From a virus, in IMG/VR virus record IMGVR_UViG_3300045988_101844, positions 1 to 31,200 of that record: a stretch of 31,200 bases of DNA. One strand, given 5' to 3'. A program made the translations under genes and the position numbers. The notes below the pieces were generated by a model, which saw nothing but the letters and a program-made list of their open reading frames with translations, was not told the origin of the DNA and did not search any database. Below are positions 1-31,200 of the stretch, in pieces. Each line of letters starts with the position of its first letter. Positions within the stretch are counted from its first letter, which is position 1.

Positions 1-7
1 AAGAATT

Positions 8-793
8 ATGAATTGGAAACCAACAAACATTAAAGGATATTCAGTTAGTGACGAAGGTCAAATAAAGAATGAACTAACTGGAAAAATATTATCTCCATTT
101 AAGAATAATATGGGATATTATTTAGTAAGCATACAAGATAAAAAGTATCTTGTACATAGATTAGTAGCAGAGGCGTTTTTAAATAAACCTAATAAATGTA
201 ATATAGTAGAACATAAAGATGATGATCCCACAAATAATTGTGTAGATAATCTTATGTGAAGTACTCAGAAATTGAATTTAAATAGGCAAGGAAGGCTTGA
301 AAAGTTAAAAAGGTATTATCAGTCCAATGAATGAAAAGAAGCTAGAAAAAAGGCTTTAGAAACAATGAAAGCAAATGGATTTAAAAAGACTAAATCAGAT
401 AAGCAAAAGGCTAAAGAAGCGGCCAGATTAGATAGAATATCTAAAGAAAGAGAGAATATAAGACCTACTCTCGACCAACAATATGATGCGTTTATTAATC
501 CTTTAATTGATTTACTTAAATCTGGATATAGTTTAAAGAGAGCTGCACAATATTTTGGAATAAATGATACTACTGGCATTACTTATTTTTCTAAAAGATA
601 TTATGAAGAAACAGGAATTAAACTTATTACATATAAGATTAAAAAATCGTCGTTTTCAAATGCAGAAAAATTAATGAATAAAATTAAAGAATTATATAAT
701 CAAGGTTTAACTGTAGAGGAAATAAGTGAAGAAGTAAACAGATCAGTAAATATTGTTAATAAATATATAAAACTATGGAAGATTCATATTTAA
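8..793 (+). CDS. HNH homing endonuclease (NUMOD4-like N-terminus, HNH_3-type core, C-terminal HTH region), 261 aa under code 4
   Basis: Track ORFs 8..259 and 365..793 share a frame. They are joined by in-frame TGA at 257-259 and 332-334 with no TAA/TAG between. Reading TGA as Trp gives HKDDDPTNNCVDNLMW-STQ, the canonical HNH_3 NLxW motif. TAA stop at 791-793. Confidence 0.85.
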
Positions 794-957
794 ATAGAAT
801 TGCGGATATTAAAGAAACAATTAAACAAACAGAAGAGTATATTAAAGAATTAGATAAATGAATACTCGAATGTAAAGAAGCTACTAAAAGATTAGGAGAT
901 ATTATAGATAGAGTATTAGCACAAAGAGATTTTACATTTATTTCAAAATTTGATTAA
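775..957 (+). CDS. hypothetical small protein, 60 aa (code 4)
   Basis: ATG at 775, in-frame TGA at 859-861 (ELDKW-ILECK), TAA at 955-957. Overlaps the upstream gene end by 19 nt. No recognisable domain. Confidence 0.4.
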
Positions 958-959
958 TT

Positions 960-1094
960 ATGGATGATTTTTTATTTAAAAAGCTTAAAGAACTAGAATA
1001 TAGAATAGTTCAATTAGAAAACCAAAACAAAGGGTTAGTTTGGGAAGAAGTAGAAGAAAAACCAGAGATTCCTAACGCAACATATATTGACTAA
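960..1094 (+). CDS. hypothetical small protein, 44 aa
   Basis: ATG at 960, TAA at 1092-1094, coiled-coil-like sequence. Packed 2 nt after the previous ORF. Confidence 0.35.
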   Translation: MDDFLFKKLKELEYRIVQLENQNKGLVWEEVEEKPEIPNATYID

Positions 1095-1095
1095 T

Positions 1096-1236
1096 ATGAA
1101 GTACTTTACATATAAATTATGCTTAAATGGAGTAAATTACGTTTATGTAATTCCCGAAAATAGTAAATTCTTAGTAGATTTACAAACTGGAGAATTAATA
1201 CCTAAAGATGAGAAATTATTTGAGATAATGGAATAA
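1096..1236 (+). CDS. hypothetical small protein, 46 aa
   Basis: ATG at 1096, one nt after the previous stop. TAA at 1234-1236, followed by a terminator hairpin. Confidence 0.35.
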   Translation: MKYFTYKLCLNGVNYVYVIPENSKFLVDLQTGELIPKDEKLFEIME

Positions 1237-1241
1237 ACAAA

Positions 1242-1276
1242 AAGGAGGGTTATTTGCCCTCCTTTTCTTTTTTATT
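1242..1276. terminator. bidirectional rho-independent terminator between convergent modules
   Basis: Stem aaggaggg (1242-1249) pairs with ccctcctt (1257-1264) around a 7-nt loop. A T-run (ttcttttttatt) follows on the plus strand and tttgtttatt follows on the minus strand. The stop of the minus-strand HNH gene (1250-1252) lies in the loop. Confidence 0.7.
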
Positions 1277-3789: not shown

Positions 3790-4479
3790 TTACTTACTCT
3801 TTTTATTATTACTTGAAGGGAAATCATAAGCTCTTTGAAGAGGTCCCTCTCCAGGTTTAACGCTCCATCCTTTACCTCTTGCTCCACCAAGCCAAATATT
3901 GCAAGATGAGCTAGAGTAAAGATTAGGAAACATATCCTTTAATGGCTTATATGTATAAAGCTCAGGGAATTCGTTATAATATGTAATTATAAAGTCCTGT
4001 AAACGAGTCTTAAAGAAATCCGCCTTATCTCTATAATACTTCTTAATTTGATTTACTTGACTTGCTTCAGCAGCAATATCTTTCTCATCATCAGTTCTCA
4101 TAACTCCAAAATTACCAAGCTTATAAGATATAGGAATTACTATCTCGCTAAGTACTTGATAAAGTAAATAAGGCTGAACATAATAGTCTAATAGCTCTTT
4201 ATATCTGTAGTTATCAGAATCATCAATAGAATCACTTGGAAGTGGCTCAGGAGGTTCTATTGGATGAACTGGAGTATGAGGATCAATCCAATTAATACAT
4301 TTCTTTTGTAATGCTTCTAATAGCTTAGTACCAATAGTTGACTGAAGCTCTACATCTTGGGCACTTGTGATGGCTGCTTGTAAATATTTACCCGATATAT
4401 TGTTATCTAATGTAGAATTTGACTTTATATAGTCTTCTGAAATAAGCAGTACATTTCTATAGTTAAGTTGTTCCATCAT
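3790..4479 (-). CDS. hypothetical structural protein, possible head-tail adaptor, 229 aa
   Basis: Intact track ORF with TAA stop, sitting between two homing endonuclease genes downstream of the portal. The adaptor call rests on position and weak gp6-like N-terminal character only. Confidence 0.5.
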   Translation of the reverse strand: MMEQLNYRNVLLISEDYIKSNSTLDNNISGKYLQAAITSAQDVELQSTIGTKLLEALQKKCINWIDPHTPVHPIEPPEPLPSDSIDDSDNYRYKELLDYYVQPYLLYQVLSEIVIPISYKLGNFGVMRTDDEKDIAAEASQVNQIKKYYRDKADFFKTRLQDFIITYYNEFPELYTYKPLKDMFPNLYSSSSCNIWLGGARGKGWSVKPGEGPLQRAYDFPSSNNKKSK

Positions 4480-5071
4480 AAATAAATTTATTGTTTTTAT
4501 AAGGTCTATTTTCTTTTAAAGCTAAATATAATCCAGAACGTTCTCCATTAACTGATTTAACAGCTTCTTTCATTGAATTATATCTTGCAATAAAATTCCC
4601 ATTCATATCAAATCTTAATATAGGCTTAACTCTAGTAATTCGTCCTTTGGAAGCATTTCCAATTTTAATAAGTGTTTCCAAAGTATAGATTCCTTTCTTT
4701 CCTTTATTCCAGGGTGTTTTACCTTTTTTAGAATTTGACATTTTTGCTCTACTCTCATTAGAAAAAGAATACCCGTATGTACCTTCTCCTCCTGATGTTA
4801 TATTGTAACCATTTTCAGGAGTATTTGTTTTATATTTATGTATCAATATTCTCTCTAACGTCTTAGCGCAAGCTTCTGGTAAATTATCTTTAATTATGAT
4901 ATGTTCAAATCCATCTCAGCTATATTTTTGTATCGCTTTATAAAAGTAAGCTTGAGTAGAGTATCCATATCCATTTTTTCACCTAGCTTGCGCACTTTGT
5001 CCAGTAATGCCAAAATATAGCTTATTGTTATACTTATTTATATGGCAATAAACAGTATAATTATTCAACAT
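4463..5071 (-). CDS. GIY-YIG homing endonuclease with NUMOD3-like repeats, 202 aa (code 4)
   Basis: Track ORF 4463..4846 is only the C-terminal part. The same frame upstream is open to ATG 5071 through TGA at 4979-4981 and 4916-4918. This gives YCHINKYNNKLYFGITGQSAQAR[W]KNGYGYSTQAYFYKAIQKYS[W]DGFEHIII, with both TGA at Trp positions conserved in the family. Overlaps the portal end by 11 nt and the next gene start by 17 nt. Confidence 0.9.
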
Positions 5072-6152
5072 TTTGTTTGCTATCTTCTTGTCCATTTGGA
5101 GTTAAGCTAAAAGGAGTTATAGTTATTGAACCTTTCATTCCAAATATCTTATCAAATGTATCTACTATTTCGACCTGAATTGGTCTAACTACTGTACGAT
5201 TATAAAGTTTAAAAGCTTCATTAAATTCTTGTTCGTTGAATCCACTTGAGTAGTTAAGGCCAAAAAGTACACTATTAGCTCTAAATGCGCAGAATATCTG
5301 TTCTCTTGTTCTATCAGATAAAGCACTATATTTCTCATCAAAATCATCAGAATCTAAACGCTCAATAGTAGTCTTATTTGTTTCATCATCATTATATGAA
5401 ATAAGAACTCTACCAGCATTTTGAAATCCTGAGAATTTCTCATTAATATTCATCTCAATCTCTTCTTTAACTTCATCTGTAGGCTGTCCATTATTAAAGT
5501 TAATGATAAGATTGCCCATAAATCCGTTATGAAGAGAATTTAGATGGAACTCATTAATATTCTTCTCAGTTTCGCAAGATAGGATAGCTGCACCATAAAC
5601 AGGGACTGGATATACTTTTCTTGTTATATAGCCCTTATTATAAACAACACTTGTAGGATTATCATCTGAATAATTAAATTTTGGATATTTGATAGCTTTA
5701 ATAGACCAAGCAGACCAATCATCGGCATAATAGAATACTTCATTCTTTTCATCAGAACGAATCTTCATAAAGTCAAGATGATATATTTCTGAAACTCTAC
5801 CTACCATATCTCTAATTATTTGTAAAGCATATCCTCCAAAAATCATCTTATCTTTAGATACTTTACGCATAATATCCATAATAGTCTCACCTTTCTTATT
5901 TACAGTTACTTCAAATCCTGGTGCATTACATATAACATCATTACCAACAATAAAGTCAGCAGTACCATTAATGATAGATTGAAGAGTAGCTACATTTAAA
6001 TATAAATCCCATAAATATACAGGATAGCGATTATCTTCACCCCAAGAAATATAGTCCTTACCTCTAACTTTACCTTCTACTGGCAATACGATGTTTGATA
6101 CAATTACTGGATCAATTGCACTTAATTGTACTTTTGTTTTATTTTCGCTCAT
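5061..6152 (-). CDS. portal protein (HK97-family-like), 363 aa
   Basis: Track ORF 5061..6209; I prefer the start at ATG 6152 (MSENKTKVQ). Portal-like pattern: FSGFQNAGRVLISYNDDE...IERLDSDDFDEKYSALSDRTREQIFCAFRANSVLFGL. No TGA codons. Confidence 0.7.
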   Translation of the reverse strand: MSENKTKVQLSAIDPVIVSNIVLPVEGKVRGKDYISWGEDNRYPVYLWDLYLNVATLQSIINGTADFIVGNDVICNAPGFEVTVNKKGETIMDIMRKVSKDKMIFGGYALQIIRDMVGRVSEIYHLDFMKIRSDEKNEVFYYADDWSAWSIKAIKYPKFNYSDDNPTSVVYNKGYITRKVYPVPVYGAAILSCETEKNINEFHLNSLHNGFMGNLIINFNNGQPTDEVKEEIEMNINEKFSGFQNAGRVLISYNDDETNKTTIERLDSDDFDEKYSALSDRTREQIFCAFRANSVLFGLNYSSGFNEQEFNEAFKLYNRTVVRPIQVEIVDTFDKIFGMKGSITITPFSLTPNGQEDSKQNVE

Positions 6153-6600: not shown

Positions 6601-6632
6601 AACATAAAAATAGGGAGAATAAAATCTCCCTA
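6601..6632 (-). terminator. rho-independent terminator
   Basis: Stem tagggaga (6611-6618) pairs with tctcccta (6625-6632) around a 6-nt loop. On the minus strand it is followed by tttttatgtt. It lies 7 nt after the TAG stop at 6639-6641. Confidence 0.65.
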
Positions 6633-13391: not shown

Positions 13392-13428
13392 AAACAAAAT
13401 AAGGGGCAAGTAAATTAATACTCGCCCC
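13392..13428 (-). terminator. rho-independent terminator after the capsid module
   Basis: Stem ggggcaagta (13403-13412) pairs with tactcgcccc (13419-13428), with one mismatch and a 6-nt loop. The minus strand continues ttattttgttt. Confidence 0.7.
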
Positions 13429-13438
13429 TCTTCTGTTG

Positions 13439-14001: not shown

Positions 14002-14907
14002 TTAGGCTTTGGCACCAAGAACTACCTCATCAGGGAATGCAACCTGTACGCCAGCGTTAAATTCAATAGCTAATCTAAATTCGCGGAAATCTTGTGAATA
14101 CCACAATTCAAACTTCTCTTCATCGTTCATCATATCGCAACCATAGAAGAAGTTCTTATCTAACTGACCAGCAACAATCTTATCAGTTCCATTAAGACCA
14201 TTAACAGCGATTACTTTAACCTGCGAACCAGGAAGCATAATCTCACCATTAAGATTCTCACCACTATAGTGGTAGTAGTTCTTAGCAACTAACTCCTGGA
14301 TAAATTTACGGAAAGTATCACTGCCAACTAAGATAGAAGCACCATCCAGAACCTTCTCAGGAATAGCGTTATAAACAGTCATAATGTCATCATAAGCAGA
14401 TGCTCCAGTAATTACTACATCAACAACCCCATCAGCAGCACCAAGGATCTTTAACAGACCATCAAAATACTTCAGGTTATTTGTTCCAGAAGCAGTATCA
14501 CCCTGCCAAATAGCAGTCTCAATAGCAGCCTTAACATTCTCAACTACTGCATTTACGAAATCCTCTTCAAAAGGAAGCGTCTTCTGACCAGCAGCTACTC
14601 GTACTTGATACTGAGTCCAGTATTTAAGCATCTCTTTATCACAATATGCCATATTGATCTTAATATTACCAGTAGCTAGAATTCTCTGAGAAAGAGTCTG
14701 AGTTCCAGCTTCATCCCAACCACAAGCTAGGCCATCGCCAAACTGAATAGCAGTTGATAACAGGTTAAGAGCAGCACTAGTTTTGATGTCAGTTTGAAGA
14801 TTGAACAACGAAGCACTCTTAGCCTTTAATACAGCCTCTTTAATAAGAGGAAGACGTCTCTGCTCTACATAAGCAGTAAGACTAGTCATTACAGGACTAT
14901 TTGCCAT
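14002..14907 (-). CDS. major capsid protein (HK97-fold family), 301 aa
   Basis: Intact track ORF. Capsid-like features include ETAIWQGDTASGTNNLKYFDGLL and the position after scaffold and protease. All four Trp are TGG. Confidence 0.85.
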   Translation of the reverse strand: MANSPVMTSLTAYVEQRRLPLIKEAVLKAKSASLFNLQTDIKTSAALNLLSTAIQFGDGLACGWDEAGTQTLSQRILATGNIKINMAYCDKEMLKYWTQYQVRVAAGQKTLPFEEDFVNAVVENVKAAIETAIWQGDTASGTNNLKYFDGLLKILGAADGVVDVVITGASAYDDIMTVYNAIPEKVLDGASILVGSDTFRKFIQELVAKNYYHYSGENLNGEIMLPGSQVKVIAVNGLNGTDKIVAGQLDKNFFYGCDMMNDEEKFELWYSQDFREFRLAIEFNAGVQVAFPDEVVLGAKA

Positions 14908-16139: not shown

Positions 16140-16192
16140 TTTTATTAATATATAGCACTTTATAAATTTGTAATATTTTTAGAATATCTAAT

Positions 16193-16240
16193 GTAACCTT
16201 TTTACTCATATTTTGTAGTTAATAAGAATAAAAAAGTTAC
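16193..16240. repeat. 48-nt intergenic element, copy B (inverted relative to copy A at 25121..25168)
   Basis: gtaacctttttactcatattttgtagttaataagaataaaaaagttac. Its reverse complement matches copy A at the first 13 and last 21 positions. The ends form a 13-bp imperfect inverted repeat. Confidence 0.8.
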
Positions 16241-16251
16241 ACTAAATATTT

Positions 16252-19020
16252 TTAGAATGAAGCATTAGATTCAGTAACTGCTACCTTAGTTTGAGCTGAA
16301 GTAATGTCAGATTCAACAACATAACACTTAACAGGTTCATTTAAAAGGTCAGTTTCTTTATCTCCAAGTAAGTTTCGAGTATATTCAACAGGAGCTGTAT
16401 TTAAAGCAGCTGGTGCTGCCACTGCTGCAGATGCTCCACTCACTCCACTTGCACCTGATTCATCTACTTCTCAAATCTTTTTAACATTTGCAATACCTGC
16501 AACTACTGCGGCTGCAGCTGCAGCAATACCTAAAGCAGGACCTACAATAGGAATTCCTGCCATAGCAGAGTATGCGCTATTTGCTGCTGAATAAGTGTCA
16601 ATTAATGCTTGAGCAGTAGCAAATCCTTTACCTACTTTACTTTCCTCTCCTCAAATACTTGCCATACTTCCAGCAATACTAGAAGCTACAGATAAAGTAC
16701 TTTGTAAAGCTTGCTGCCTTGCTTTTTGAAGATTTTGATAAGCCTGAGTATTTGCCTGTTCATTAGCTAATTGAGCATCTGATAAGGCCATATTATTCTC
16801 AGTAAGAGTTCTTTGAATTTCCTCTTTTTGTTCAGCAGTTAATTGTTCATTCATTAATTGCTGACTTAATAAGGCATTCTCTTGCTCTATTCTACCTTGA
16901 GTTAATGAGAGTAAGTTGTTATTGTATTCAATTTGAGCATTGTATTGATTCTCTAAGTCCTCTCTACTCTGATATGTAAATTTATAACCAGTCCCTTCAT
17001 AATCTCCAGCCAATCCAAATGCTTTCGATATACCTTGAGTATAAGTAGTCTGAAAGGTCTGCTCTCTTGGCTCTCTCAAATTACTTGTAGAAGATAAATC
17101 TCTAATCCTTTTTAATTCAGACTGTAGATCATTCCAAGCTTTATCTGCATCTGCTTTACGCTTAGCTTCTTCATCAGCTCTAGCTTTATCTCTAATCTTT
17201 TTAAGTTCTTCCTGATGCCAAGCTTCTACCTCTTCAATTCCCCTATTATACTTAATAGCTAATGCTAATAGTCTAATATATTCATCTTCAAGTTCATCTA
17301 CTGGGTCTTTATCCTCTAATCTCTTTTGAAGCCATTCATCAAATTCATTTATTACCTTCTTAGCTTCAGTAGTGTTCTTTGTAATAGTTGGAATATTAAA
17401 GAACCCACCATACTTTTTATTAGTATCTGCTACATCCTCAAATAGCTTTTTAAGCCTTTTCTCAATGTCTTTATTTAAATCATCCAACTGTTTATAAGTA
17501 TTCTCTTTATTTTGCTTTGTGTACTCATAAATTGTATTTGAATAATCTTTTCAGAACATTGCTGTAGCTTTAAAAGCCTGCCAAGCAGATGCCTCTCCAA
17601 AACTTGTATCAGAAATTTGATTCTCCAGTTCAGTACGTTTATTTAAATACTCCTCATAAAGCTTAATTGCAGCCTGTTCAATAGCCTGAGCTTTTGCTCT
17701 TGCAGTTAATGCTTCTACATAATTACCAGTATTATTTACAAACGCATCTTCTGCAGTCTTTACATCAGTGATATTTAAACCAGTCTCTTTAATCTTATCT
17801 GAATATTGCTCTATAAACTTACGCTTAGCATCTGCAGAATCTCCAACCCTTTCGTAAGCTATTTGTAACTCTCTAAAGATAGCTATAGATTTAGAAGCAA
17901 TCTGATTAGTAGTATCTGTAATAGACTTTCTAAATTCAGCAGCCTCCTTTTCAGCTGATTTTATTGAGGATATATACTCTATTATCTTATTAATAGCTAA
18001 TCCAATAGCTGTAGCTAATGCAATTCATACAGTTACATTACCAATAGTTTTAAGTGCAGTTTTAACTTTACCTACTCCAGAAGCAGCTTGTTCTGAAGCT
18101 TCAGCCATTGCTTTCTGAGCCTCTGCCCCTTTTCGCAAAGTTGGAATGCCTTTTTCTACATTTTCCTTTAATTCAGCAAGATCTACACCTAAACGTTTAG
18201 CAGCTTTCTGCATTCTCTCTGCTGGAGTTCCAGTCTCTTTTGCTGCTTCCTTTAAAAATTCAGCAACTGTAGTAAATGTAGGTTTTACTTCTTCAAAGGA
18301 CTTTTTTGCAGTTTCTCCTAATTTACCTATAATCGGAATCGTATTAGATACACTCTTATTAGTAGCAGATATTTCAGCAGGAGTGCCCATTACTCCTTGA
18401 ATCATACCTCCTTTAAAATTAATATTGGTGCCTTCTAAATCCTTGACTACTTTAGAGATATTACCTAATTCAGTTCCAACATTACCAACAGATGTGCCAA
18501 TGCCATTAAGCTTAGATGCATCAATCTGATTAAGATTTTTGGCAGCATTATTCAACCCTGTATTAAATGGAGAGATAAAATCAGTTAATTTCTTAAACCA
18601 ATTACCTAAAGTAGGCAATTCTTCTAATAAATCTTTTATACCTCCCACACCTTGTACTAATGCAATAGATGACTGTAACTTAACCATTACTTTAGTTAAA
18701 TCTTCAGATTCTTTCCCAAATAAAGTAATGGCAGCTGTTGCAGCTCCATATCCACTGGCCAAACCAGTGGATATTTTAGCTACACTTTCAAACCTTTGAG
18801 CAGTAGTTCTTGAAGATCTTGCTATCTGCTCATTAATTTTATTGAATTCTGATTGTCTCTTACCAAGTAATGAAAGAGTTTCATTATATTCCTTAGTACC
18901 AATCTCTAAATCATTCAGCGAATTAGTTAATGCATCAATATCTTTCTTTAAAGAGTTTATTGACTTATTACTTGACTTAGTATCAATACTAATAACCTTT
19001 TTAATTTCTGTTTGTGCCAT
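16252..19020 (-). CDS. tape-measure-like protein, 922 aa (code 4)
   Basis: Track ORFs 18025..19020, 16651..17487 and 16252..16443 share one frame. In-frame TGA at 18025, 17551, 16651 and 16471. I translated all gaps and found no TAA/TAG. Long helical regions and an Ala/Gly-rich hydrophobic segment (GIPIVGPALGIAAAAAAVVAGIANVKKI). Confidence 0.8.
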
Positions 19021-24560: not shown

Positions 24561-25049
24561 TTAAAAGTTTTTAAATAAATAATAATCTACTTGTCCTTGT
24601 AAGTCTTTAGTTATAGCATCATCAAGAAGTTCCATATAGTTGTTCTCTATATATTCTAGAGTATTAGCAAGTGGATGTTTTCCTTGAGTTCCTTGAAGAT
24701 GTATCTTTCTTCCAATTAAATATGCAAGTTGATCTACAGTAGGTAACTTGCCATTATAAGGTCTTGGAATTACTGGCTTAGTTTTAATCCAACTCTTTAT
24801 ATCAGATAATGGAGGAAATTTACCAGCAGCTCTGCCTTCTTCAACATATTCTCAATAATCTAATAAGCTAAAATTAACCTCATAGTCTCCATCCTGAGTC
24901 TCAACTATATAGTTTAAACTATTACCTAATGCTCCAGTGTCATCAGATCTGGTTTTAACTAATTCCTGTCTATAAAGAGAAATTATAAGATCTCCTCACT
25001 TCCTTAATAGCTCACTTAAATTTGAGAACTTTAATTCTTGAATATTCAT
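24561..25049 (-). CDS. hypothetical virion protein, possibly HK97 gp10-like tail-completion protein, 162 aa (code 4)
   Basis: Absent from the track because TGA at 24996-24998 and 24852-24854 split it. ATG 25049, TAA 24561-24563. Contains LLDY[W]EYVEEGRAAGKFPPLSDIKSWIKTK. The functional call is weak. Confidence 0.6.
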
Positions 25050-25115: not shown

Positions 25116-25120
25116 TATAT

Positions 25121-25168
25121 GTAACTTTTTTATATTATATTAGTACCAAATATGAGTAAAAAGGTTAC
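25121..25168. repeat. 48-nt intergenic element, copy A
   Basis: gtaacttttttatattatattagtaccaaatatgagtaaaaaggttac. See copy B at 16193..16240. Confidence 0.8.
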
Positions 25169-25313
25169 AGTTAATGTTTTCTTTTTCATTCTTCAATCTG
25201 TCTATTTTCTTCATTAGCTTTATCTATAACATAGCATATAAGATTCAGGAACTCTTTAATCTGCATATCATATATCTGATGCCAATTAAATCTGGTAACT
25301 TCACTTACCTTAT

Positions 25314-25955
25314 CTATTCAGATAATTCAGCTTCATTTTTGAGTAAAAGGATTAATCGTCTCGTCTGTATTAAGCTCTCCAGAAGTTTCCTCCTTTCCAG
25401 TTTGTCCTTGGTTTTCCTTAGTCTCTTCTTCATCTCCCTTTCCGAAGAGTGTAGGGTACTCAGCGTTGATACTTGCAATAAGTTTACAAAAAAAAACATT
25501 ATGTCTGAAAATATATCTATTGTTAGATGGGTATTTAAGAATTCTGCCTCATCAATAGGGTCATAATCTTCTCCATACTTCTTTCCATTAGGTAGCAAGA
25601 AACAAGCTGCTAGATTAGGCATAAAATCATCATACTGCTTATAAAAATTCTGAAAGTCAATATATTGACTGGCCGTCATCTTATTAACATTAAAAAAGAC
25701 TTTATATTCTTTATTACCAATATTATAAGTAGTTTCTGGAGTTTTTGGCTTATATGGAGTCTCTATAAATTTAAGATTATTTATAAATTCTTGCAGCTTG
25801 TTTACTTCCATATTAGTTATATCTTCTATAGGTATATCACTAAGTACGGATACCATAGCTAAATTCATATCTAATTCATTTTCCCAGTCTTTTCGTATTA
25901 TCTCAAACAGTCTTTTATAATGAGATAAATCCATTTCATTCCAATTCTTTATCAT
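25314..25955 (-). CDS. hypothetical protein, 213 aa
   Basis: Intact track ORF. Its ATG shares a base with the TerL TAA (TAATG). TAG stop at 25314-25316. Basic, helical C-terminus. No confident family assignment. Confidence 0.6.
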   Translation of the reverse strand: MIKNWNEMDLSHYKRLFEIIRKDWENELDMNLAMVSVLSDIPIEDITNMEVNKLQEFINNLKFIETPYKPKTPETTYNIGNKEYKVFFNVNKMTASQYIDFQNFYKQYDDFMPNLAACFLLPNGKKYGEDYDPIDEAEFLNTHLTIDIFSDIMFFFVNLLQVSTLSTLHSSEREMKKRLRKTKDKLERRKLLESLIQTRRLILLLKNEAELSE

Positions 25956-27238
25956 TATTTAATTGCAATATTATAAGTTCCTTTATTTGTATTTAAAGCA
26001 TCATAAGCTAACATTAAAGATATACAAGTATCATCATTAAATCCAGATGGAGCATTATATGATACATTTCCAGTCTTTGGATTATAACTGGCTTCATATA
26101 GTCTTAATTCATTTAATAGTTTATCATCCTTTAAAATACCAATCTTTTCGTTTTCTAATGCCGCTTGTAGCTTATTTACAATAGCTGCCTTAGACTTATT
26201 AGTAGTTAAAAACTTAACTATCCGTAATTTAGGATTCCTTTTTACAAGAATATCATAAAACACTGAACCTATTGAGTTTTGTTCGACTTGAACTATCTTT
26301 ATAAATCCCTGATACTCAGTAAATATATTTGTCAGTAAATCAACTTGTTCTGTTGGAGTTTTGTCGTTAAAATACTTTATAAAGACCATCTGCCCATTTT
26401 CATTTAAAGCTGTAATACAAGTATAGTCTTTACCAGAACCAGTAGCCCAGTCAACTCCAATATAGAGATTATGATATTCAGGTTTTTTATCAATTATACA
26501 GTTAGCTATATTATTAAATAGGCAACCATCATCATCTGCAAACTCTCCAAGATATTCAGTTCTAAATTTATTTTTGGAGGTTGTAAGGCGATACATTTCA
26601 AGTTTATCCTCACTTAACAGCATAGAAGTATCTTCTAATGCTCAATCAAAGGATTGATAATATTTACTAAAATTACCATCAAAGCCCTTTTTAAAGCATT
26701 CATAAAAGAATCCTTCTCTAAACCTTGGAGTACTAATTATAAGTATTGGAGCATTCCATACATCAGCGATAGGTGTTAAAATTTCGTATACTTCATCTGA
26801 TATATAAGCTGCTTCGTCAATTACTAATATTCCACTAACTGTAAATCCTCGTAATGAATCTTTTTGCTCAGCAGATTTAAATAGTATTTCACTCCCATTA
26901 GTAAATTCAATCTCAAGCAAAGATTCATTCTTTTTCTTAATAATATCTGTGCCATCTAATGCCTTTACTAACTCTTTAAATATCTTTCTGGAGTTAGTAA
27001 GAGTTGGTTCAACAATACAGCTAATACTTCCAGGATAGTTAATTGAAAATCGTAATAGTTCATTTTCTGCCATAAAGGATTTACCACATTGTCTCTTTGC
27101 TTTTACAGTAAATATTTTTCCAGACCTATAAGAGTGCTCTAAAGCAGTATGTACCTTTAATTGATAGATAAATGGGCTATATCCTTTATATATTTTTGTC
27201 ATTGTTAATTGGATCTCCAAATTTAAACTGGACTTCAT
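25955..27238 (-). CDS. terL: terminase large subunit, 427 aa (code 4)
   Basis: Track ORFs 26642..27238 (ATPase; Walker A KAKRQCGKSF, Walker B ILVIDEAAY) and 25955..26623 (nuclease half; IGVDWATGSGKDYT, GFNDDTCISL) share a frame. They are joined by one TGA at 26642-26644 (YQSFD-W-ALEDTS). An alternative start at ATG 27202 would cut the overlap with terS to 17 nt. Confidence 0.9.
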
Positions 27239-27901: not shown

Positions 27902-28228
27902 TTAATCCAAGTATTTATAAACTATATCTATTAGTTTGGTAATCATATCTTTAATTAGAATCATACAATCCTTTATAACTGGAGTCATAAATGCGATTAA
28001 AGCAATATATGCAATCATTAAGAAGCTTAATTGTCCAGTTACTAAGATATATAGTAAACTTGCCCACCAAGTACAGCATAGAGAACATCCAAATAAAGGT
28101 ATAGACCAATCAGTATATTTAACTCCAGGATATAGTTTACTTCATACCCATCTATTTGCCTTGTCCATAGCTCCAGATAAATCAATACAGAAGACAAGAA
28201 TAATAGCTATAAAAAGTATGCTTAACAT
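27902..28228 (-). CDS. small multi-pass membrane protein, 108 aa (code 4)
   Basis: Absent from the track because TGA at 28142-28144 splits it. ATG 28228, TAA 27902-27904. Sequence MLSILFIAIILVFC...ANRWV[W]SKLYPGVKYTDWSIPLFGCSLCCTWWASLLYILVTG. The plus-strand track ORF 27936..28250 is its shadow. Confidence 0.6.
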
Positions 28229-28467
28229 AATCTCTCTCTTATTTGTTTAATAAATCTCTGAATAGTCGTATGACTAATTCCCAGAATCTTCCCAACTTCT
28301 CTATAACTTCGATATTCAGCATATAAGATAATTATGGTCTTATCTGCTCTATTTAATGCCTCTCATTTCGGATAAATTGCAAGTAATCTATCATCCATCT
28401 CTGTAAAGGTATCTATTTCAAAGTTATACTCAATTAATAAATCATCAATATTAATCTTCTGCTTCAT
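28222..28467 (-). CDS. small HTH protein (sigma-70 region 4 / LuxR-like), 81 aa (code 4)
   Basis: Absent from the track because of TGA at 28363-28365. ATG 28467, TAA 28222-28224. C-terminal HTH: RADKTIIILYAEYRSYREVGKILGISHTTIQRFIKQIRERL. Confidence 0.55.
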
Positions 28468-28966
28468 AATACTTTCATTTAAATCCTTTTGAAGTTAATT
28501 GTCTTCCTTTTAAACAGGCAATAATGTTTGATATAATAAATCCATTTCTCTTTAATTCATTTATTGAAGGTCATACTTTAATAATATTGTTATCTATATC
28601 TAACTGCACAACTCGCTTGGAACTTTTATTATTCTGGCAGTTTTTAACAAAATTATTAATTCTATTGCCGTAAGTAAGATTATAAGACCTTGTACATCAT
28701 TCTAAGTTTTCTATAACATTATTGCATTTATTTTCATCAATATGATTTATTTCACAATAACTGTTAGGATTTGGAATAAACGCTTCTGCTACTAGCCGAT
28801 GTATATAAAAATTTTTTCTACCTTGTTTATTATATAAACAAACAAAAGAATATCCACTATTGGATCGCATAGGTTTAATAACTCCTCTAACACTTTTAAC
28901 TCTGCCTAAAGTGCTAATCTGGTAGTTCGGGTAATTCGTTATATTCTTCCAGGTCTCCATCATCAT
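28451..28966 (-). CDS. HNH homing endonuclease (NUMOD4-like N-terminus, HNH_3 core), 171 aa (code 4)
   Basis: Track ORF 28697..28966 ends ...NHIDENKCNNVIENLE at TGA 28697-28699, completing NLEW-CTRSYN. Further TGA at 28571-28573 and 28475-28477 (KGFK[W]KYYEAED). TAA at 28451-28453. Confidence 0.85.
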
Positions 28967-29228
28967 TAATTTTATCTGTTATAAAAATATCATAATATCG
29001 TTTATATGCATAATAGTATCTGCTATTCTTACTGAACCAGTTGTTTTTAAACACTCTTACAATTCAGTATTTTAATTCATTTTTGGCCAATAAACTATTT
29101 AATTTGGCATTATCTGTTTCTAGTAAAGCTAGAAGGCAAATTTGAAAACAATCATCATCCATCCTAAATTTAACCTTTAGCTCTAAGCAGAATTCATAAT
29201 ATTTGGTAAGTATTTCATTATTCGTCAT
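28914..29228 (-). CDS. hypothetical protein, 104 aa (code 4)
   Basis: Absent from the track because of TGA at 29064-29066. ATG 29228, TAG 28914-28916. Overlaps the start of the HNH gene by 53 nt. Confidence 0.45.
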
Positions 29229-29902: not shown

Positions 29903-30082
29903 TTAGAAAGAAATACCTAAACCAAAAAACCAAGAGGATTTCTTTACCTTTTCATTGGTTTCAATCTCCTTTAATGCCTCATTACATAATTCTTGAGCTT
30001 TCTCAATAGAACCATCTTCAGTAATCTTACCATCTAATATATCAAGAAAATATTCAAGTGCTTCAATTTGTTTAGTTTTCAT
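29903..30082 (-). CDS. hypothetical small protein, 59 aa
   Basis: ATG 30082, TAA 29903-29905. It is the first ORF downstream of promoter 30128..30158. Confidence 0.4.
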   Translation of the reverse strand: MKTKQIEALEYFLDILDGKITEDGSIEKAQELCNEALKEIETNEKVKKSSWFFGLGISF

Positions 30083-30127: not shown

Positions 30128-30158
30128 CAAAAGTAATAAAATATTTTTAATTCTCAAA
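30128..30158 (-). promoter_or_regulatory. Bacteroidota-type promoter (-33 TTTG, 19-nt spacer, -7 TAnnTTTG)
   Basis: The minus strand reads TTTG (30158-30155), 19 nt, then TACTTTTG (30135-30128). This lies 45 nt upstream of ATG 30082. Confidence 0.55.
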
Positions 30159-30179
30159 ATATTTTGACAATCATTTTTA

Positions 30180-30926
30180 TTAAAAATCAAAAATATCTTT
30201 ATTATCATATTCAATATCCTGCTTTCTATCTAATCCAAATAAACCAGCAAGTATATCATTGTAGATATTATTAGCCTTTGGACTTAAATAAAGCTTATTC
30301 TTTACAAAATAAACTGTCTGCTTATATAATTTATTATCTGAAGGAGTTGAAAGAACATTCTTAATAGTTCTAATATTTTGCTCATTTAAATGTACTACTT
30401 CATTCTTAATAAATTCTTCATATCTTATCTGGTAACCATCTTCTACTTTATCTAAGTAAAATCCATATTCTTTCAGCTTATTAAGCTTATTATTTAACAA
30501 ATTATATGTAATACCTAATTCTGAGGCTATATCTTTCTTATTTAATCTAATTTTTAAAGTATCATCAAATGCTAAACTTCTAATTCTTAAGGCAAGTCCT
30601 AATAAATTGAGATCCTTATCAATATTATTTATTACAAAATCCAATTTAACCATAAAAAATGTATTTATTATTGATTTATAGGTATTAGTCTTTATAACAT
30701 TACCATTATCTTTAATTATAACTTTAGTAGAACAGTCTAATAACTCTGATTTATAAAGATGACTATTCATCTTCTTAATATAATCTACAGAGCATTTTAA
30801 ACACTTTGCAAAGTAATCTCTTGTGTATACTTTATTCTGAAGCTGTATATAAGACTGTAATGCCATATAATATGCTTCTTTATCATTCAAATCTTTTACT
30901 CGTTTGTCAATTTTTAAATAAATCAT
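30180..30926 (-). CDS. putative DNA-binding (winged-helix-like) protein; possible replication initiator or regulator, 248 aa
   Basis: Intact track ORF. HTH-like segment LNKKDIASELGITYNLLNNKLNKLKEYGF. Sits directly downstream of the repeat-rich region 30927..31161. Function is inferred from context only. Confidence 0.5.
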   Translation of the reverse strand: MIYLKIDKRVKDLNDKEAYYMALQSYIQLQNKVYTRDYFAKCLKCSVDYIKKMNSHLYKSELLDCSTKVIIKDNGNVIKTNTYKSIINTFFMVKLDFVINNIDKDLNLLGLALRIRSLAFDDTLKIRLNKKDIASELGITYNLLNNKLNKLKEYGFYLDKVEDGYQIRYEEFIKNEVVHLNEQNIRTIKNVLSTPSDNKLYKQTVYFVKNKLYLSPKANNIYNDILAGLFGLDRKQDIEYDNKDIFDF

Positions 30927-30937
30927 AGTGCTAAAAT
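30927..30937. repeat. 11-nt arm of a long-range inverted repeat (partner at 31088..31098)
   Basis: agtgctaaaat abuts the ATG at 30926. Its exact reverse complement attttagcact lies at 31088-31098. Confidence 0.85.
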
Positions 30938-30970
30938 TTTTCTGGAACGAAAGCTCGAAGAGCTGAGTCC

Positions 30971-31004
30971 TATAGTATTACTTTTATTATAGTATTACTT
31001 TTAT
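30971..31004. repeat. perfect tandem direct repeat, 2 x 17 nt (tatagtattacttttat)
   Basis: Units at 30971-30987 and 30988-31004 are identical. Iteron- or operator-like. Confidence 0.9.
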
Positions 31005-31008
31005 TAAT

Positions 31009-31046
31009 GGGTACTGAATCGACAGGTCGGTCGGGTACTGAATCGA
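31009..31046. repeat. direct repeat, 2 x 14 nt (gggtactgaatcga), with starts 24 nt apart
   Basis: Copies at 31009-31022 and 31033-31046, separated by caggtcggtc. Locally GC-rich in an AT-rich context. Confidence 0.9.
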
Positions 31047-31052
31047 TATATG

Positions 31053-31087
31053 TCTAAAAATAGGGTTTGGGTAGCTAATCCAAACCC
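31053..31087 (-). terminator. rho-independent terminator/attenuator
   Basis: Stem gggtttgg (31063-31070) pairs with ccaaaccc (31080-31087) around a 9-nt loop. The minus strand continues tatttttag. Confidence 0.6.
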
Positions 31088-31098
31088 ATTTTAGCACT
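31088..31098. repeat. 11-nt arm of a long-range inverted repeat (partner at 30927..30937)
   Basis: attttagcact, the exact reverse complement of 30927-30937. Confidence 0.85.
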
Positions 31099-31108
31099 AA
31101 TAAAAGTA

Positions 31109-31126
31109 GTGATTACTTCTAATCAC
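31109..31126. promoter_or_regulatory. palindromic operator-like site GTGATTA-N4-TAATCAC
   Basis: Perfect 7-bp half-sites at 31109-31115 and 31120-31126, 4 nt downstream of the -7 box of promoter 31131..31161. Confidence 0.5.
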
Positions 31127-31130
31127 AATG

Positions 31131-31161
31131 CAAAGATAACATTATTTTTTTAATCTACAAA
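31131..31161 (-). promoter_or_regulatory. Bacteroidota-type promoter (-33 TTTG, 19-nt spacer, -7 TAnnTTTG)
   Basis: The minus strand reads TTTG (31161-31158), 19 nt, then TATCTTTG (31138-31131). Confidence 0.55.
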
Positions 31162-31200
31162 ACATTTACAAGAAAAAATTAACTTTTTATTAAAAATATT

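What the first reader, a model, noticed from the sequence alone, without database searches (positions are those of the whole stretch)
30128..31161. Two exact matches to the Bacteroidota promoter architecture TTTG-N19-TAnnTTTG, and no Shine-Dalgarno sequences anywhere
Two sites on the minus (coding) strand match the Bacteroides-type primary-sigma consensus, a -33 TTTG and a -7 TAnnTTTG, and both have the same 19-nt spacer. They are TTTG-19 nt-TACTTTTG (30158..30128) and TTTG-19 nt-TATCTTTG (31161..31131). Both lie in intergenic DNA facing downstream genes.

None of the 20-nt regions upstream of start codons that I inspected contains a GGAGG-like Shine-Dalgarno sequence; they are A/T-only leaders. 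Examples are tataaaattATG at 14907 and ttaacaaaaATG at 25049. This fits Bacteroidota translation initiation.

Together these features point to a standard-code Bacteroidota host for a TGA-recoded phage.
Basis: partly seen in the sequence, partly recalled or inferred. Interest (0 to 1): 0.7.

Follow-up and report, generated by a model that had tools for sequence, protein, structure and literature searches.

The report
Bacteroidota-type promoters in a TGA-recoded phage
The two sites are very probably real host-type promoters at the head of a small, complete gut-phage genome that reads TGA as tryptophan; they point to a Bacteroidota host, which is a useful but ordinary result, and how TGA is decoded without any suppressor tRNA remains unexplained.

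Summary
TTTG-N19-TATCTTTG (31161..31131) and TTTG-N19-TACTTTTG (30158..30128) are the only exact matches on either strand. Both are intergenic and sense-oriented. The sense-intergenic null expects 0.004-0.018 matches, with P(>=2) <= 2e-4.

In about 95 related loci, intergenic matches occur almost only at spacers of 19 (13) and 20 (31). Coding DNA shows no such peak. Every intergenic match faces a gene. The -7 box is invariant where surrounding DNA has diverged or been replaced.

Shine-Dalgarno pairing is depleted (5% of genes against about 16% background). Adenine is enriched at -3 and at -12 to -14, the published Bacteroidota signature. Control phages separate cleanly: Bacteroides and Flavobacterium phages 3-14% SD; Staphylococcus, Clostridioides and Mycoplasma phages 50-77%.

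TGA encodes Trp: it aligns with TGG at 25 of 41 sites in relatives and is never a stop. The window is a complete, circular-mapping genome of about 31.2 kb with no tRNA.

So this is a code-4 siphovirus-like phage using host sigma-A(Bfr)-type promoters and SD-less initiation. It is a new member of a known kind. The host phylum and its standard code are inferred, not shown. The open puzzle is tRNA-less TGA decoding.

The parts
31131..31161 (-). Promoter P1: -33 TTTG (31161..31158), 19-nt A/T-rich spacer, -7 TATCTTTG (31138..31131). The predicted start of transcription is about 31126.
   Evidence: The sequence was read directly and is an exact, unique match. Both boxes are invariant in 4 copies while the first spacer bases vary. 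A 34%-identical homolog of the downstream gene is also preceded by an exact TTTG-N19-TATATTTG (L110 2026-2056). The start site is inferred from G = -5 in Flavobacterium johnsoniae (PMC6847099).
31109..31126 (-). 5'-terminal hairpin of the P1 transcript: GUGAUUA-GAAG-UAAUCAC.
   Evidence: It appears in the minimum-free-energy fold. One stem pair changes G:C (window) to G.U (L108) to A:U (L006, L007), which keeps RNA pairing.
31056..31087 (-). Intrinsic-terminator-like hairpin in the P1 leader: GGGUUUGG, a 9-nt loop, CCAAACCC, then UAUUUUU. If efficient, it would end a transcript of about 70 nt.
   Evidence: The 89-nt leader folds at -24.5 kcal/mol, z = -4.5, with 0 of 200 shuffles as stable. 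It is invariant in 4 copies. The simple terminator scan missed it because the loop exceeds 8 nt.
31079..31099 (-). Leader segment complementary to the translation-initiation region of the 248-aa gene. The core UAGUGCUAAAAU (31099..31088) is a perfect 12-nt match.
   Evidence: Inverted repeat I1 is 21 nt and 81% complementary. The pairing appears in the minimum-free-energy fold of the whole 5' UTR (-50.2 kcal/mol, z = -4.7).
31009..31046 (.). Two exact 14-nt direct repeats (TCGATTCAGTACCC on the minus strand), 24 nt start to start.
   Evidence: Family D2; identical in 4 copies.
30971..31004 (.). Two exact tandem 17-nt direct repeats (ATAAAAGTAATACTATA on the minus strand). They look like iterons or operators.
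   Evidence: Family D1. AATACTA-type repeats occupy the same position upstream of the distant homolog in L110.
30926..30946 (-). Translation-initiation region of the 248-aa gene (-20 to +1), which can pair with the leader segment 31099..31079.
30180..30926 (-). First gene behind P1: 248 aa, two tandem winged-helix domains, no Trp codon of either kind.
   Evidence: HTH_Crp_2 is weak in the window protein and found in 13 of 20 family members. The AlphaFold model has pLDDT 90.2. The only PDB fold matches are weak ones to proteins with multiple winged helices. The family has 28 representatives in 1.8 billion proteins.
30128..30158 (-). Promoter P2: -33 TTTG (30158..30155), 19-nt spacer, -7 TACTTTTG (30135..30128). 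The predicted start is about 30123, giving an unstructured 41-nt 5' UTR.
   Evidence: In the footprint, the -7 box is invariant and the -33 TTG is kept in 7 diverged versions with a 19- or 20-nt spacer and unrelated upstream DNA. The 5' UTR folds at 0 kcal/mol.
29903..30082 (-). First gene behind P2 (59 aa, TGA-free). It heads a co-oriented array of 36 genes that runs to 1250.
   Evidence: ORF map. The same gene follows the P2-type promoter in relatives at 45-46 nt.

Best explanation
The two sites are promoters for the host's primary RNA polymerase holoenzyme of the Bacteroidota type (sigma-A(Bfr), -33 TTTG / -7 TAnnTTTG). They sit at the head of the single long minus-strand gene array of a complete, roughly 31.2-kb siphovirus-like phage genome that reads TGA as tryptophan.

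P1 lies in the control region next to the genome junction. Its transcript is predicted to start near 31126 with a 5' hairpin. It then meets an intrinsic-terminator-like hairpin, two pairs of direct repeats and a 248-aa tandem winged-helix gene. The start codon of that gene can be sequestered by pairing with the leader.

P2, 1 kb downstream, starts an unstructured 41-nt leader and the 36-gene array of small early genes, packaging, head, tail and lysis genes. Ribosomes start on these mRNAs without Shine-Dalgarno pairing, using A-rich leaders with A at -3 and at -12 to -14, as in Bacteroidota.

Shown here: the motif's non-randomness, its spacing rule, its orientation rule, its conservation, the SD depletion and adenine pattern, and TGA = Trp. 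Inferred: that host sigma-A(Bfr) is the factor that binds, the start sites, the function of the terminator and leader pairing, the host phylum, and that the host uses the standard code.
For: Uniqueness and statistics.

Family-wide spacer test on unique contexts: intergenic hits number 13 at N19, 31 at N20 and 2 at N21, with 0-2 at every other spacing from 10 to 30. Coding DNA is flat at 1-11.

Orientation: every intergenic N19-21 hit has a same-strand gene downstream, usually 20-46 nt away. This includes exact matches on the opposite strand ahead of the divergent 572-aa gene that replaces the window's plus-strand cluster in many relatives.

Footprints: plus an exact N19 promoter ahead of a 34%-identical homolog.

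Consensus detail: the NN positions of the -7 box never contain G in 46 sites, matching the refined TAHHTTTG consensus (PMC6847099). The spacer is 84% A+T.

Translation initiation: 5% of genes show SD pairing. A is 78% at -3, 71% at -13 and 66% at -14, matching PMC6847099.

Controls: Bacteroides phage B40-8 has 4 intergenic N19 hits and 14% SD. Flavobacterium phage 11b has 3% SD. Phages phi11 and phiC2 have 77% SD and no N19-20 hits. Mycoplasma phages have 50% and 77% SD.

Rival promoter type: sigma-70-type sites are depleted relative to shuffles (98 against 114.5; 48 against 68.2).

Cell wall: the endolysin is a Peptidase_M15_3, so the host has peptidoglycan.

Relatives: distant capsid relatives lie in Bacteroidaceae, Bacteroidales and Agriterribacter MAGs, the last on a 113-kb contig. 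The SD-poor signature extends across the lineage, including standard-code relatives.

Genetic code: TGA aligns with TGG at 25 of 41 sites and with GGN at one. All 41 stops are TAA or TAG.
Against: There is no direct host link. No cultured relative was found. No contig longer than about 33.6 kb carries the capsid gene. The one 148-kb contig is a concatemer of phage genomes. One distant relative is binned with a Faecalimonas (Bacillota) MAG.

No transcription start-site data exist.

Only two consensus promoters serve about 30 kb although strong terminators lie inside the array (13430-13401 and 6632-6611). Other, unrecognised promoters or antitermination must therefore exist.

The plus-strand cluster at 8-1236 has no consensus promoter.

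A standard-code host sits uneasily with TGA in 22 of 41 genes and with no suppressor tRNA in the window, in 39 related loci, or at Rfam E <= 5.
Confidence: 0.8

Rival explanations
1. The two matches are chance occurrences in A/T-rich intergenic DNA and have no function.
For: The genome is 30% G+C. One-mismatch matches are at chance level (9 against 7.5 expected). Whole-window shuffles reach 2 exact matches in 3 of 100 trials.
Against: The null for sense-strand intergenic DNA gives P(>=2) <= 2e-4. The family-wide spacer distribution peaks sharply at 19-20 nt only in intergenic DNA. Every hit faces a gene. The boxes are invariant where flanking DNA is unrelated.
Confidence: 0.01
2. The host natively uses code 4, for example Mycoplasmatales, so no recoding conflict exists and the motif says nothing about the host.
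For: TGA = Trp occurs in most genes, with no suppressor tRNA and no special TGA context. The low G+C content resembles Mollicutes.
Against: The phage encodes a peptidoglycan peptidase. Cultured Mycoplasma phages use SD at 50-77% of genes and TGA for 78-87% of Trp codons, against about 5% and 38% here. Sigma-70-type promoters are depleted. TGA is avoided in the capsid and portal genes and in the first three genes. Close relatives use the standard code (L045, L050).
Confidence: 0.03
3. The host is a Bacteroidota lineage or strain that itself reads UGA as Trp, through an undescribed code-4 lineage or a natural suppressor. The promoters would then be host-type, but the 'standard-code host' would be wrong.
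For: No phage tRNA and no read-through context were found. TGA occurs in genes only four positions behind P2. Code 4 does occur in reduced insect-endosymbiont Bacteroidota (title and term hits).
Against: Surveys of more than 470,000 genomes list no free-living code-4 Bacteroidota. TGA makes up only 38% of Trp codons while other A-ending codons reach 63-95%, which suggests TGA is costly. Standard-code relatives exist in the same lineage.
Confidence: 0.08
4. The motif is recognised by a phage-encoded factor rather than by the host primary sigma factor.
For: An 81-aa protein (28222-28467) matches Sigma70_r4 and HTH_50. In relatives it lies next to a 104-aa ORF.
Against: P1 and P2 precede the first genes of the array, upstream of that gene, so they must fire before any phage protein is made. 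The motif equals the host consensus to the base, including the no-G rule. A cultured Bacteroides phage shows the same N19 sites.
Confidence: 0.04
5. The host belongs to another phylum whose primary sigma factor recognises a similar -33/-7 motif, for example another member of the FCB group.
For: A preprint on Chlorobaculum tepidum (green sulfur bacteria) appears among papers containing TAnnTTTG; I did not read it. Host assignment here rests on signals only.
Against: NCBI holds family members as Caudoviricetes MAGs, and related contigs carry human-gut metagenome labels. From general knowledge, Bacteroidota are the only abundant members of that group in the human gut. The distant relatives that carry a taxon label are mostly Bacteroidota.
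Confidence: 0.03

Closest known systems
Bacteroides/Flavobacterium primary promoters recognised by sigma-A(Bfr) (-33 TTTG / -7 TAnnTTTG; refined to TAHHTTTG)
   Same: Both boxes match exactly. The spacer is A/T-rich and 19-20 nt long. The NN positions contain no G. The sites lie 20-46 nt upstream of start codons, with a 5' UTR comparable to the 32-nt median in B. thetaiotaomicron. The cultured Bacteroides phage B40-8 carries the same N19 sites in its intergenic DNA.
   Different: These sites are phage-borne and fall into two sequence classes: an N19 class (TTTG..a.atTaAAAAattatTaTTATaTTTG) and an N20 class (TTTGGAaATT...TGTtgTATaTTTG). The -33 box is as well conserved as the -7 box, unlike in F. 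johnsoniae, where the -33 element is weak. Binding and start sites are untested.
[quoted passage not shown]
   Same: The genome has low G+C. TGA is read as Trp. TGA is heavy in tail genes and absent from the first genes. Standard-code relatives exist in the same lineage. No suppressor tRNA is detectable, as in 65% of their code-4 genomes.
   Different: This is a small genome of about 31 kb with no tRNA, release factor or tRNA synthetase anywhere. TGA also occurs in small genes close behind the promoter, in the large terminase and in the endolysin, while the major capsid and portal genes avoid it. I could not place it in any named clade, and the capsid and terminase have no close match in the GenBank phage collection.
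Shine-Dalgarno-less, adenine-tuned translation initiation of Bacteroidota (Baez et al. 2019, PMC6847099)
   Same: SD pairing is depleted below background, with A enriched at -3, -6 and -12 to -14. The values match the Bacteroides and Flavobacterium phage controls.
   Different: The peak is at -13/-14 rather than -12/-13, and A at -3 is higher (78%) than in the two control phages (56-60%). Only 41 genes were counted.
Promoter-proximal terminator leaders (attenuators; short terminated leader transcripts such as lambda pR'-tR' 6S RNA)
   Same: A strong promoter is followed within about 70 nt by a stable hairpin and a U-run, ahead of the gene it would otherwise express.
   Different: No antiterminator protein or alternative antiterminator helix was identified. 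The complementary partner of the leader lies downstream, at the start codon, which suggests translational occlusion rather than classical attenuation. The comparison comes from general knowledge and was not tested.

Membership tests
Sigma-A(Bfr)-type (Bacteroidota primary) promoter | -7 element TAnnTTTG, with no G at the NN positions (TAHHTTTG) | tested here: met
   The boxes are TATCTTTG and TACTTTTG. None of 46 family sites has G at NN. The consensus is from PMC6847099.
Sigma-A(Bfr)-type (Bacteroidota primary) promoter | -33 element TTTG separated from the -7 box by an A/T-rich spacer of about 19-21 nt | tested here: met
   Both window sites have a 19-nt spacer. The family peaks at 19 (13) and 20 (31) with 0-2 elsewhere. 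The spacer is 84% A+T.
Sigma-A(Bfr)-type (Bacteroidota primary) promoter | Located upstream of genes in the sense orientation, and more often than chance | tested here: met
   The motif switches strand together with the gene in the divergent region of relatives.
Sigma-A(Bfr)-type (Bacteroidota primary) promoter | Transcription starts about 5 nt downstream of the G, and depends on sigma-A(Bfr) holoenzyme | not testable with these tools
   This needs dRNA-seq or 5'-RACE and in vitro transcription. The predicted starts at 31126 and 30123 are inferences.
Bacteroidota-type SD-less translation initiation | Shine-Dalgarno pairing absent or depleted upstream of start codons | tested here: met
   2 of 41 genes reach -4.5 kcal/mol or lower, against 16-17% of controls. 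Control phages: 3-14% for Bacteroidota hosts, 50-77% for Bacillota and Mollicutes hosts.
Bacteroidota-type SD-less translation initiation | Adenine enriched at -3, -6, -12 and -13 | tested here: met
   A is 78% at -3, 51% at -6, 56% at -12, 71% at -13 and 66% at -14, against a mean of about 47% over -25 to -1. The -6 signal is weak.
Code-4 (TGA to Trp) recoded phage | In-frame TGA in conserved genes, corresponding to Trp in homologs | tested here: met
   There are 45 in-frame TGA codons in 22 of 41 genes. They align with TGG at 25 of 41 sites, otherwise mostly with Tyr or Phe codons, and with GGN once.
Code-4 (TGA to Trp) recoded phage | TGA not used as a stop codon | tested here: met
   Stops are 38 TAA and 3 TAG.
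Code-4 (TGA to Trp) recoded phage | Phage-encoded TGA suppressor tRNA or other code-change genes (common, but not universal: 35% of code-4 genomes in the Borges et al. preprint) | tested here: not met
   ARAGORN finds none in the window or in 39 related loci, apart from one tRNA-Leu(CAG) at the end of the distant, high-G+C relative L057. No tRNA match appears at Rfam E <= 5. No release factor or tRNA synthetase appeared among the proteins scanned.
Code-4 (TGA to Trp) recoded phage | The host uses the standard code | not testable with these tools
   This is inferred from the Bacteroidota signals together with surveys that list no free-living code-4 Bacteroidota.
Phage of a native code-4 host (Mollicutes) | Host-like expression signals and codon use: frequent SD, TGA far more common than TGG, no need for a cell-wall hydrolase | tested here: not met
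   SD is about 5% here against 50-77% in Mycoplasma phages. TGA is 38% of Trp codons against 78-87%. A Peptidase_M15_3 endolysin is present.
Sigma-70-type -35/-10 promoter | TTGACA-N16-18-TATAAT sites enriched, especially in intergenic DNA | tested here: not met
   98 sites found against 114.5 +/- 11.5 expected, and 48 against 68.2 +/- 8.4. No site matches 12 of 12 positions.

The most novel reading that the evidence does not exclude
This abundant, uncultured family of gut phages decodes UGA as tryptophan in most of its genes inside a standard-code Bacteroidota cell without any suppressor tRNA, release factor or tRNA synthetase of its own. If so, it must either rely on a host component (for example tRNA-Trp(CCA) read-through, or a resident suppressor) or encode a small protein that disables RF2 or retargets a host tRNA. 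The natural candidates are the TGA-free genes transcribed first from P1 and P2: the 248-aa, 59-aa and 79-aa genes.
Probability: 0.2. Interest if true: 0.8.

Novelty: new member of a known kind. Interest (0 to 1): 0.35.

Why it matters
Three practical gains follow.

1. The family is abundant: 4,311 capsid homologs, mostly on contigs of about 30 kb. It has no cultured relative and no host. Its expression signals narrow the host to Bacteroidota, which tells people which strains to use for isolation.

2. The spacer-peak test and the SD/adenine profile form a simple, alignment-free host indicator that is independent of the genetic code. On seven genomes it cleanly separated Bacteroidota phages from Bacillota and Mollicutes phages.

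3. The genome is a compact 31-kb system for studying stop-codon recoding. It has two defined early promoters, TGA-free first genes, standard-code relatives, and none of the usual code-change genes.

The promoters themselves are what one would expect of a phage of this phylum.

Tried and rejected
- **Host context from the 148-kb IMG/VR contig (L024, L069):** rejected. The flank is another copy of the phage, so the contig is a concatemer of related genomes.
- **Cultured relatives:** megablast and capsid tblastn against GenBank phages found nothing. The terminase matched only at 28% identity or less, to Thermus and other phages.
- **Reference-genome scan with a capsid alignment:** 5 distant hits at 39-51% identity. 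Three are Bacteroidota, one Faecalimonas and one unclassified. This is suggestive only, and four of the five are phage-sized contigs whose binning may be wrong.
- **Large protein database search with the capsid:** no organism names beyond 'Caudoviricetes sp.'.
- **Code 25 (TGA = Gly):** rejected by codon substitutions.
- **Hidden tRNA:** none at permissive thresholds. The P1 leader is not tRNA-like: it has no acceptor pairing and no UCA in a loop (my reading).
- **Read-through context at TGA:** none. The base after TGA does not differ from that after TGG (p = 0.2).
- **Leader peptide in the P1 leader:** the 4-codon ATG ORF is not conserved, because the ATG is AGG in relatives.
- **Identity of the 248-aa protein:** Pfam, PHROGs, a PDB profile search and Foldseek give only generic winged-helix similarity. 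Replication initiator or regulator remains undecided.
- **More copies of the P1 module:** the metagenome scan found only 2, so covariation evidence for the leader is thin.
- **Further sigma-A promoters inside the array:** none, not even a -7 box alone, in sense-strand intergenic DNA.
- **The B. thetaiotaomicron PM2 motif:** it could not be compared with the TGTAAC element because its sequence is given only in a figure.
Full report
**1. What is at the coordinates**

Read on the minus strand, the window has TTTG (31161..31158), 19 nt, then TATCTTTG (31138..31131). It also has TTTG (30158..30155), 19 nt, then TACTTTTG (30135..30128). These are the only exact matches to TTTG-N19-TAnnTTTG on either strand, and this stays true with spacers of 17-21 nt.

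Whole-window dinucleotide shuffles expect 0.25 matches, and 3 of 100 shuffles reach two. That alone would be weak evidence. But both sites lie on the coding strand within the 1,107 nt that are not coding. A first-order Markov null for exactly that DNA expects 0.004 matches at N19 and 0.018 at N18-21. P(>=2) was 0 of 20,000 simulations for N19 and 2e-4 for N18-21. One-mismatch matches are at chance level.

**2. What the window is**

Under code 4, minus-strand ORF coverage rises from 6,041 to 9,430 aa, and the longest ORF grows from 477 to 1,118 aa. The genes form a tailed-phage module:

- large terminase, 25955-27238;
- portal, 5061-6152;
- capsid-like protein, 14002-14907;
- a 922-aa ORF at 16252-19020 that reads like a tape-measure protein (my reading of its sequence; no family scan was run on it), followed by large tail genes;
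- Peptidase_M15_3 endolysin, 1591-2043.

In relatives L006 and L007, window position 4 is followed after about 57 nt by window position 31200. Dozens of related contigs are 29-32 kb long. The window is therefore essentially a complete genome with a circular map.

P1 (31161) lies in the control region at the junction, opposite a short plus-strand cluster (an HNH_3/NUMOD4 gene at 8-793 plus three small ORFs). P2 (30158) lies 1 kb further on. Behind P2 run 36 co-oriented genes down to a bidirectional terminator at 1239-1267.

**3. Is the motif functional?**

Four independent lines say yes.

(a) *Spacing.* Across about 95 related loci, counting each sequence context once, intergenic matches to TTTG-Nx-TAnnTTTG number 13 at x = 19, 31 at x = 20 and 2 at x = 21. 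Every other spacing from 10 to 30 has 0-2. In nine-fold more coding DNA the distribution is flat at 1-11.

(b) *Orientation.* Every intergenic N19-21 hit has a gene downstream on its own strand, typically 20-46 nt from the -7 box. Many relatives replace the window's plus-strand cluster with a divergent 572-aa gene. In those relatives, exact matches appear on the opposite strand upstream of that gene.

(c) *Footprint.* Seven diverged versions of the region upstream of the 59-aa gene keep TA..TTTG invariant and keep the -33 TTG. The spacer is 19 or 20 nt, and the upstream DNA is unrelated. P1's boxes are invariant in four copies. A 34%-identical homolog of the 248-aa gene on another TGA-recoded contig is again preceded by an exact TTTG-N19-TATATTTG.

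(d) *Consensus detail.* The NN positions never contain G in 46 sites, and the spacer is 84% A+T. This matches the refined consensus TAHHTTTG and the A/T-rich spacer described for Flavobacterium johnsoniae and B. thetaiotaomicron.

Sigma-70-type sites are depleted relative to shuffles.

**4. Translation signals**

Of 41 start regions, 2 (5%) reach -4.5 kcal/mol or lower with the anti-SD sequence, against 16-17% of random or internal-ATG controls. SD-like sequence is therefore avoided, not merely absent. Adenine is 78% at -3, 71% at -13 and 66% at -14. This is the signature reported for Bacteroidota: no SD, with A at -3, -6, -12 and -13 (PMC6847099).

**5. Calibration on phages with known hosts**

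| Phage | Host | Genes with SD pairing | A at -12 | Intergenic hits at N19-20 | TGA share of Trp codons |
|---|---|---|---|---|---|
| Window | unknown | 5-6% | 0.56-0.58 | 2 | 38% |
| B40-8 | Bacteroides | 14% | 0.68 | 4 (plus 1 at N18) | not applicable |
| 11b | Flavobacterium | 3% | 0.69 | 0 (2.45 -7 boxes per kb of intergenic DNA) | not applicable |
| phi11 | Staphylococcus | 77% | 0.29 | 0 | not applicable |
| phiC2 | Clostridioides | 77% | 0.25 | 0 | not applicable |
| MAV1 | Mycoplasma | 50% | 0.57 | not separated by region | 78% |
| phiMFV1 | Mycoplasma | 77% | 0.54 | not separated by region | 87% |

The window groups with the Bacteroidota phages. The window ranges in the table reflect two gene sets: the curated 41 genes and the automatic gene calls used for the controls. 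The SD-poor signature also holds in standard-code relatives (L045 at 0%) and in relatives binned with Bacteroidales MAGs.

**6. Genetic code**

In relatives, in-frame TGA aligns with TGG at 25 of 41 sites, otherwise mostly with Tyr or Phe codons, and with GGN once. So TGA is Trp, not Gly. TGA is never a stop; the stops are 38 TAA and 3 TAG.

TGA makes up 38% of Trp codons, whereas other A-ending codons make up 63-95% of their pairs. It is absent from the first three genes behind P1 and P2 and from the capsid, portal and neighbouring head genes. It is common in the tail genes, with 11 in the 1,118-aa protein.

The lineage contains standard-code members (L045, L050) and other code-4 members (L043/L095, L044). 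This fits recent recoding, as Borges et al. describe.

**7. The unresolved point**

No tRNA is found in the window. None is found in 39 related loci that together span the genome; the single exception is a tRNA-Leu(CAG) at the end of the distant, high-G+C relative L057. None appears at Rfam E <= 5. TGA has no special downstream context. No release factor or tRNA synthetase appeared in the family scans.

Borges et al. found suppressor tRNAs in only 35% of code-4 phage genomes, so this is not unusual for the class. It is nevertheless unexplained. Published surveys list code 4 only in Mycoplasmatales, reduced endosymbionts, two Eggerthellaceae genera and some Patescibacteria. A Bacteroidota host therefore implies a standard-code host by inference only.

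**8. The P1 region in detail**

With G of the -7 box at -5, transcription should start near 31126. That is the first base of a hairpin, GUGAUUA-GAAG-UAAUCAC (31126..31109). One of its pairs changes G:C to G.U to A:U among four copies.

A hairpin GGGUUUGG/CCAAACCC followed by UAUUUUU lies at 31087..31056. The 89-nt leader folds at -24.5 kcal/mol with z = -4.5.

Next come two exact 14-nt repeats (31009-31046) and two tandem 17-nt repeats (30971-31004). The leader segment 31099..31079 is complementary to positions -20 to +1 of the 248-aa gene, with a perfect 12-nt core. This pairing appears in the minimum-free-energy fold of the full 5' UTR (-50.2 kcal/mol, z = -4.7).

The 248-aa protein models confidently (pLDDT 90.2) as two tandem winged-helix domains. 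It has only weak structural neighbours, all of them proteins with multiple winged helices, and it belongs to a small family.

My reading is that this is a self-limiting early control or replication module. P1 mostly makes a short terminated RNA. Read-through transcripts have their start codon occluded. The protein binds the repeats. This reading is an inference. The terminator's efficiency, the pairing and the protein's role are all untested.

P2, by contrast, has an unstructured 41-nt leader.

**9. What does not fit**

Two consensus promoters are unlikely to account for all expression. Strong terminators lie inside the array (13430-13401 and 6632-6611), and no further -7 box occurs in sense-strand intergenic DNA.

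A second recurrent element may be involved in processing or regulation. It is a 50-bp inverted repeat with arms TGTAACYTTTTT, present at 16192-16241 and 25120-25169 and also in the 5' UTR of the 572-aa gene in relatives. Its inner part is in opposite orientations at the two window sites. That suits a symmetric hairpin or operator better than a directional promoter.

**10. Verdict**

The sites are host-type sigma-A(Bfr) promoters in a TGA-recoded, SD-less phage, so the host is very probably a Bacteroidota bacterium. This is a new member of known kinds: Bacteroidota promoters, and code-4 gut phages. It is not a new mechanism.

I could not identify the host directly, map transcription starts, or explain how TGA is decoded.

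Noticed in passing
window 31056-31126 and 30926-30946: The transcript predicted from the 31161 promoter starts with a 7-bp hairpin and runs into a terminator-like hairpin with a U-run after about 70 nt. A 21-nt leader segment is complementary to the start-codon region of the next gene, 132 nt downstream. One hairpin pair changes G:C to G.U to A:U among four copies.
   Followed up: partly
window 30971-31004 and 31009-31046: Two exact tandem 17-nt repeats and two exact 14-nt repeats lie between the leader terminator and the 248-aa gene. AATACTA-type repeats occupy the same position upstream of a 34%-identical homolog (L110, about 2215-2245). They could be iterons or operators.
   Followed up: partly
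window 30180-30926 (-): The 248-aa protein contains no tryptophan codon of either kind. It models at pLDDT 90 as two tandem winged-helix domains, has no convincing PDB neighbour, and belongs to a family of only 28 representatives in 1.8 billion proteins.
   Followed up: partly
whole window; related loci L006-L096: There is no tRNA anywhere in a genome that uses TGA as Trp in 22 of 41 genes. TGA is only 38% of Trp codons. It is avoided in the capsid and portal genes and in the first three genes, and is common in tail genes. No special base follows TGA.
   Followed up: yes
window 16192-16241 and 25120-25169; L065 7264-7313: A 50-bp inverted repeat with arms TGTAACYTTTTT occurs as four exact arms, where shuffles predict essentially none. 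It lies in two intergenic gaps and, in relatives, in the 5' UTR of the 572-aa gene. The inner sequence is in opposite orientations at the two window sites.
   Followed up: partly
window 1 and 31200; L001, L002, L006, L007, L108: The window is a whole genome with a circular map. Three independent assemblies end at exactly window position 31200. Relatives carry about 54 extra nt there, including a tandem 14-nt repeat (TATTTTTAATAAAA twice), which may cause the assembly break.
   Followed up: partly
window 1-1250; L065 5511-7229, L077 4718-6436: A module swap occurs next to the promoters. The window has a plus-strand cluster (an HNH_3/NUMOD4 gene at 8-793 plus three small ORFs) with no consensus promoter. 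Many relatives instead have a divergent 572-aa gene with no Pfam or PHROG match, preceded by tandem exact promoters on the other strand.
   Followed up: partly
window 28222-28467, 28451-28966, 28914-29228: An 81-aa protein with Sigma70_r4 and HTH_50 matches and a 104-aa ORF are adjacent in relatives (L077 7869-8418). In the window they are separated by an HNH_3/NUMOD4-type homing-endonuclease gene. They may form a small split sigma-like factor. Other endonuclease-type genes are at 1250-1588 (HNH) and 4463-5095 (NUMOD3).
   Followed up: no
window 1239-1267, 6611-6632, 13401-13430: There is a bidirectional terminator between the convergent gene sets, and two strong minus-strand terminators inside the long gene array. 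No recognisable promoter lies downstream of these two; both are followed by the sequence TTTATATTTTA.
   Followed up: no
L024, L069 (IMGVR_UViG_3300045988_175865, 148,631 nt): This contig is not a prophage in host DNA. Upstream of one phage copy lies the end of another, diverged copy, so it is a concatemer of related genomes.
   Followed up: yes
L045, L050 compared with L043/L095, L044: Relatives with 56-69% capsid identity include both standard-code and code-4 genomes. All have SD-poor, A-rich start regions, so recoding seems to have arisen within one host-associated lineage.
   Followed up: partly
L098 (JAZQSP010000200.1, Faecalimonas sp. MAG): A 33-kb contig that encodes a 48%-identical capsid is binned with a Bacillota MAG. 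It shows only 31% SD use and carries an intergenic N20 match, so it may be a mis-binned Bacteroidota phage.
   Followed up: no
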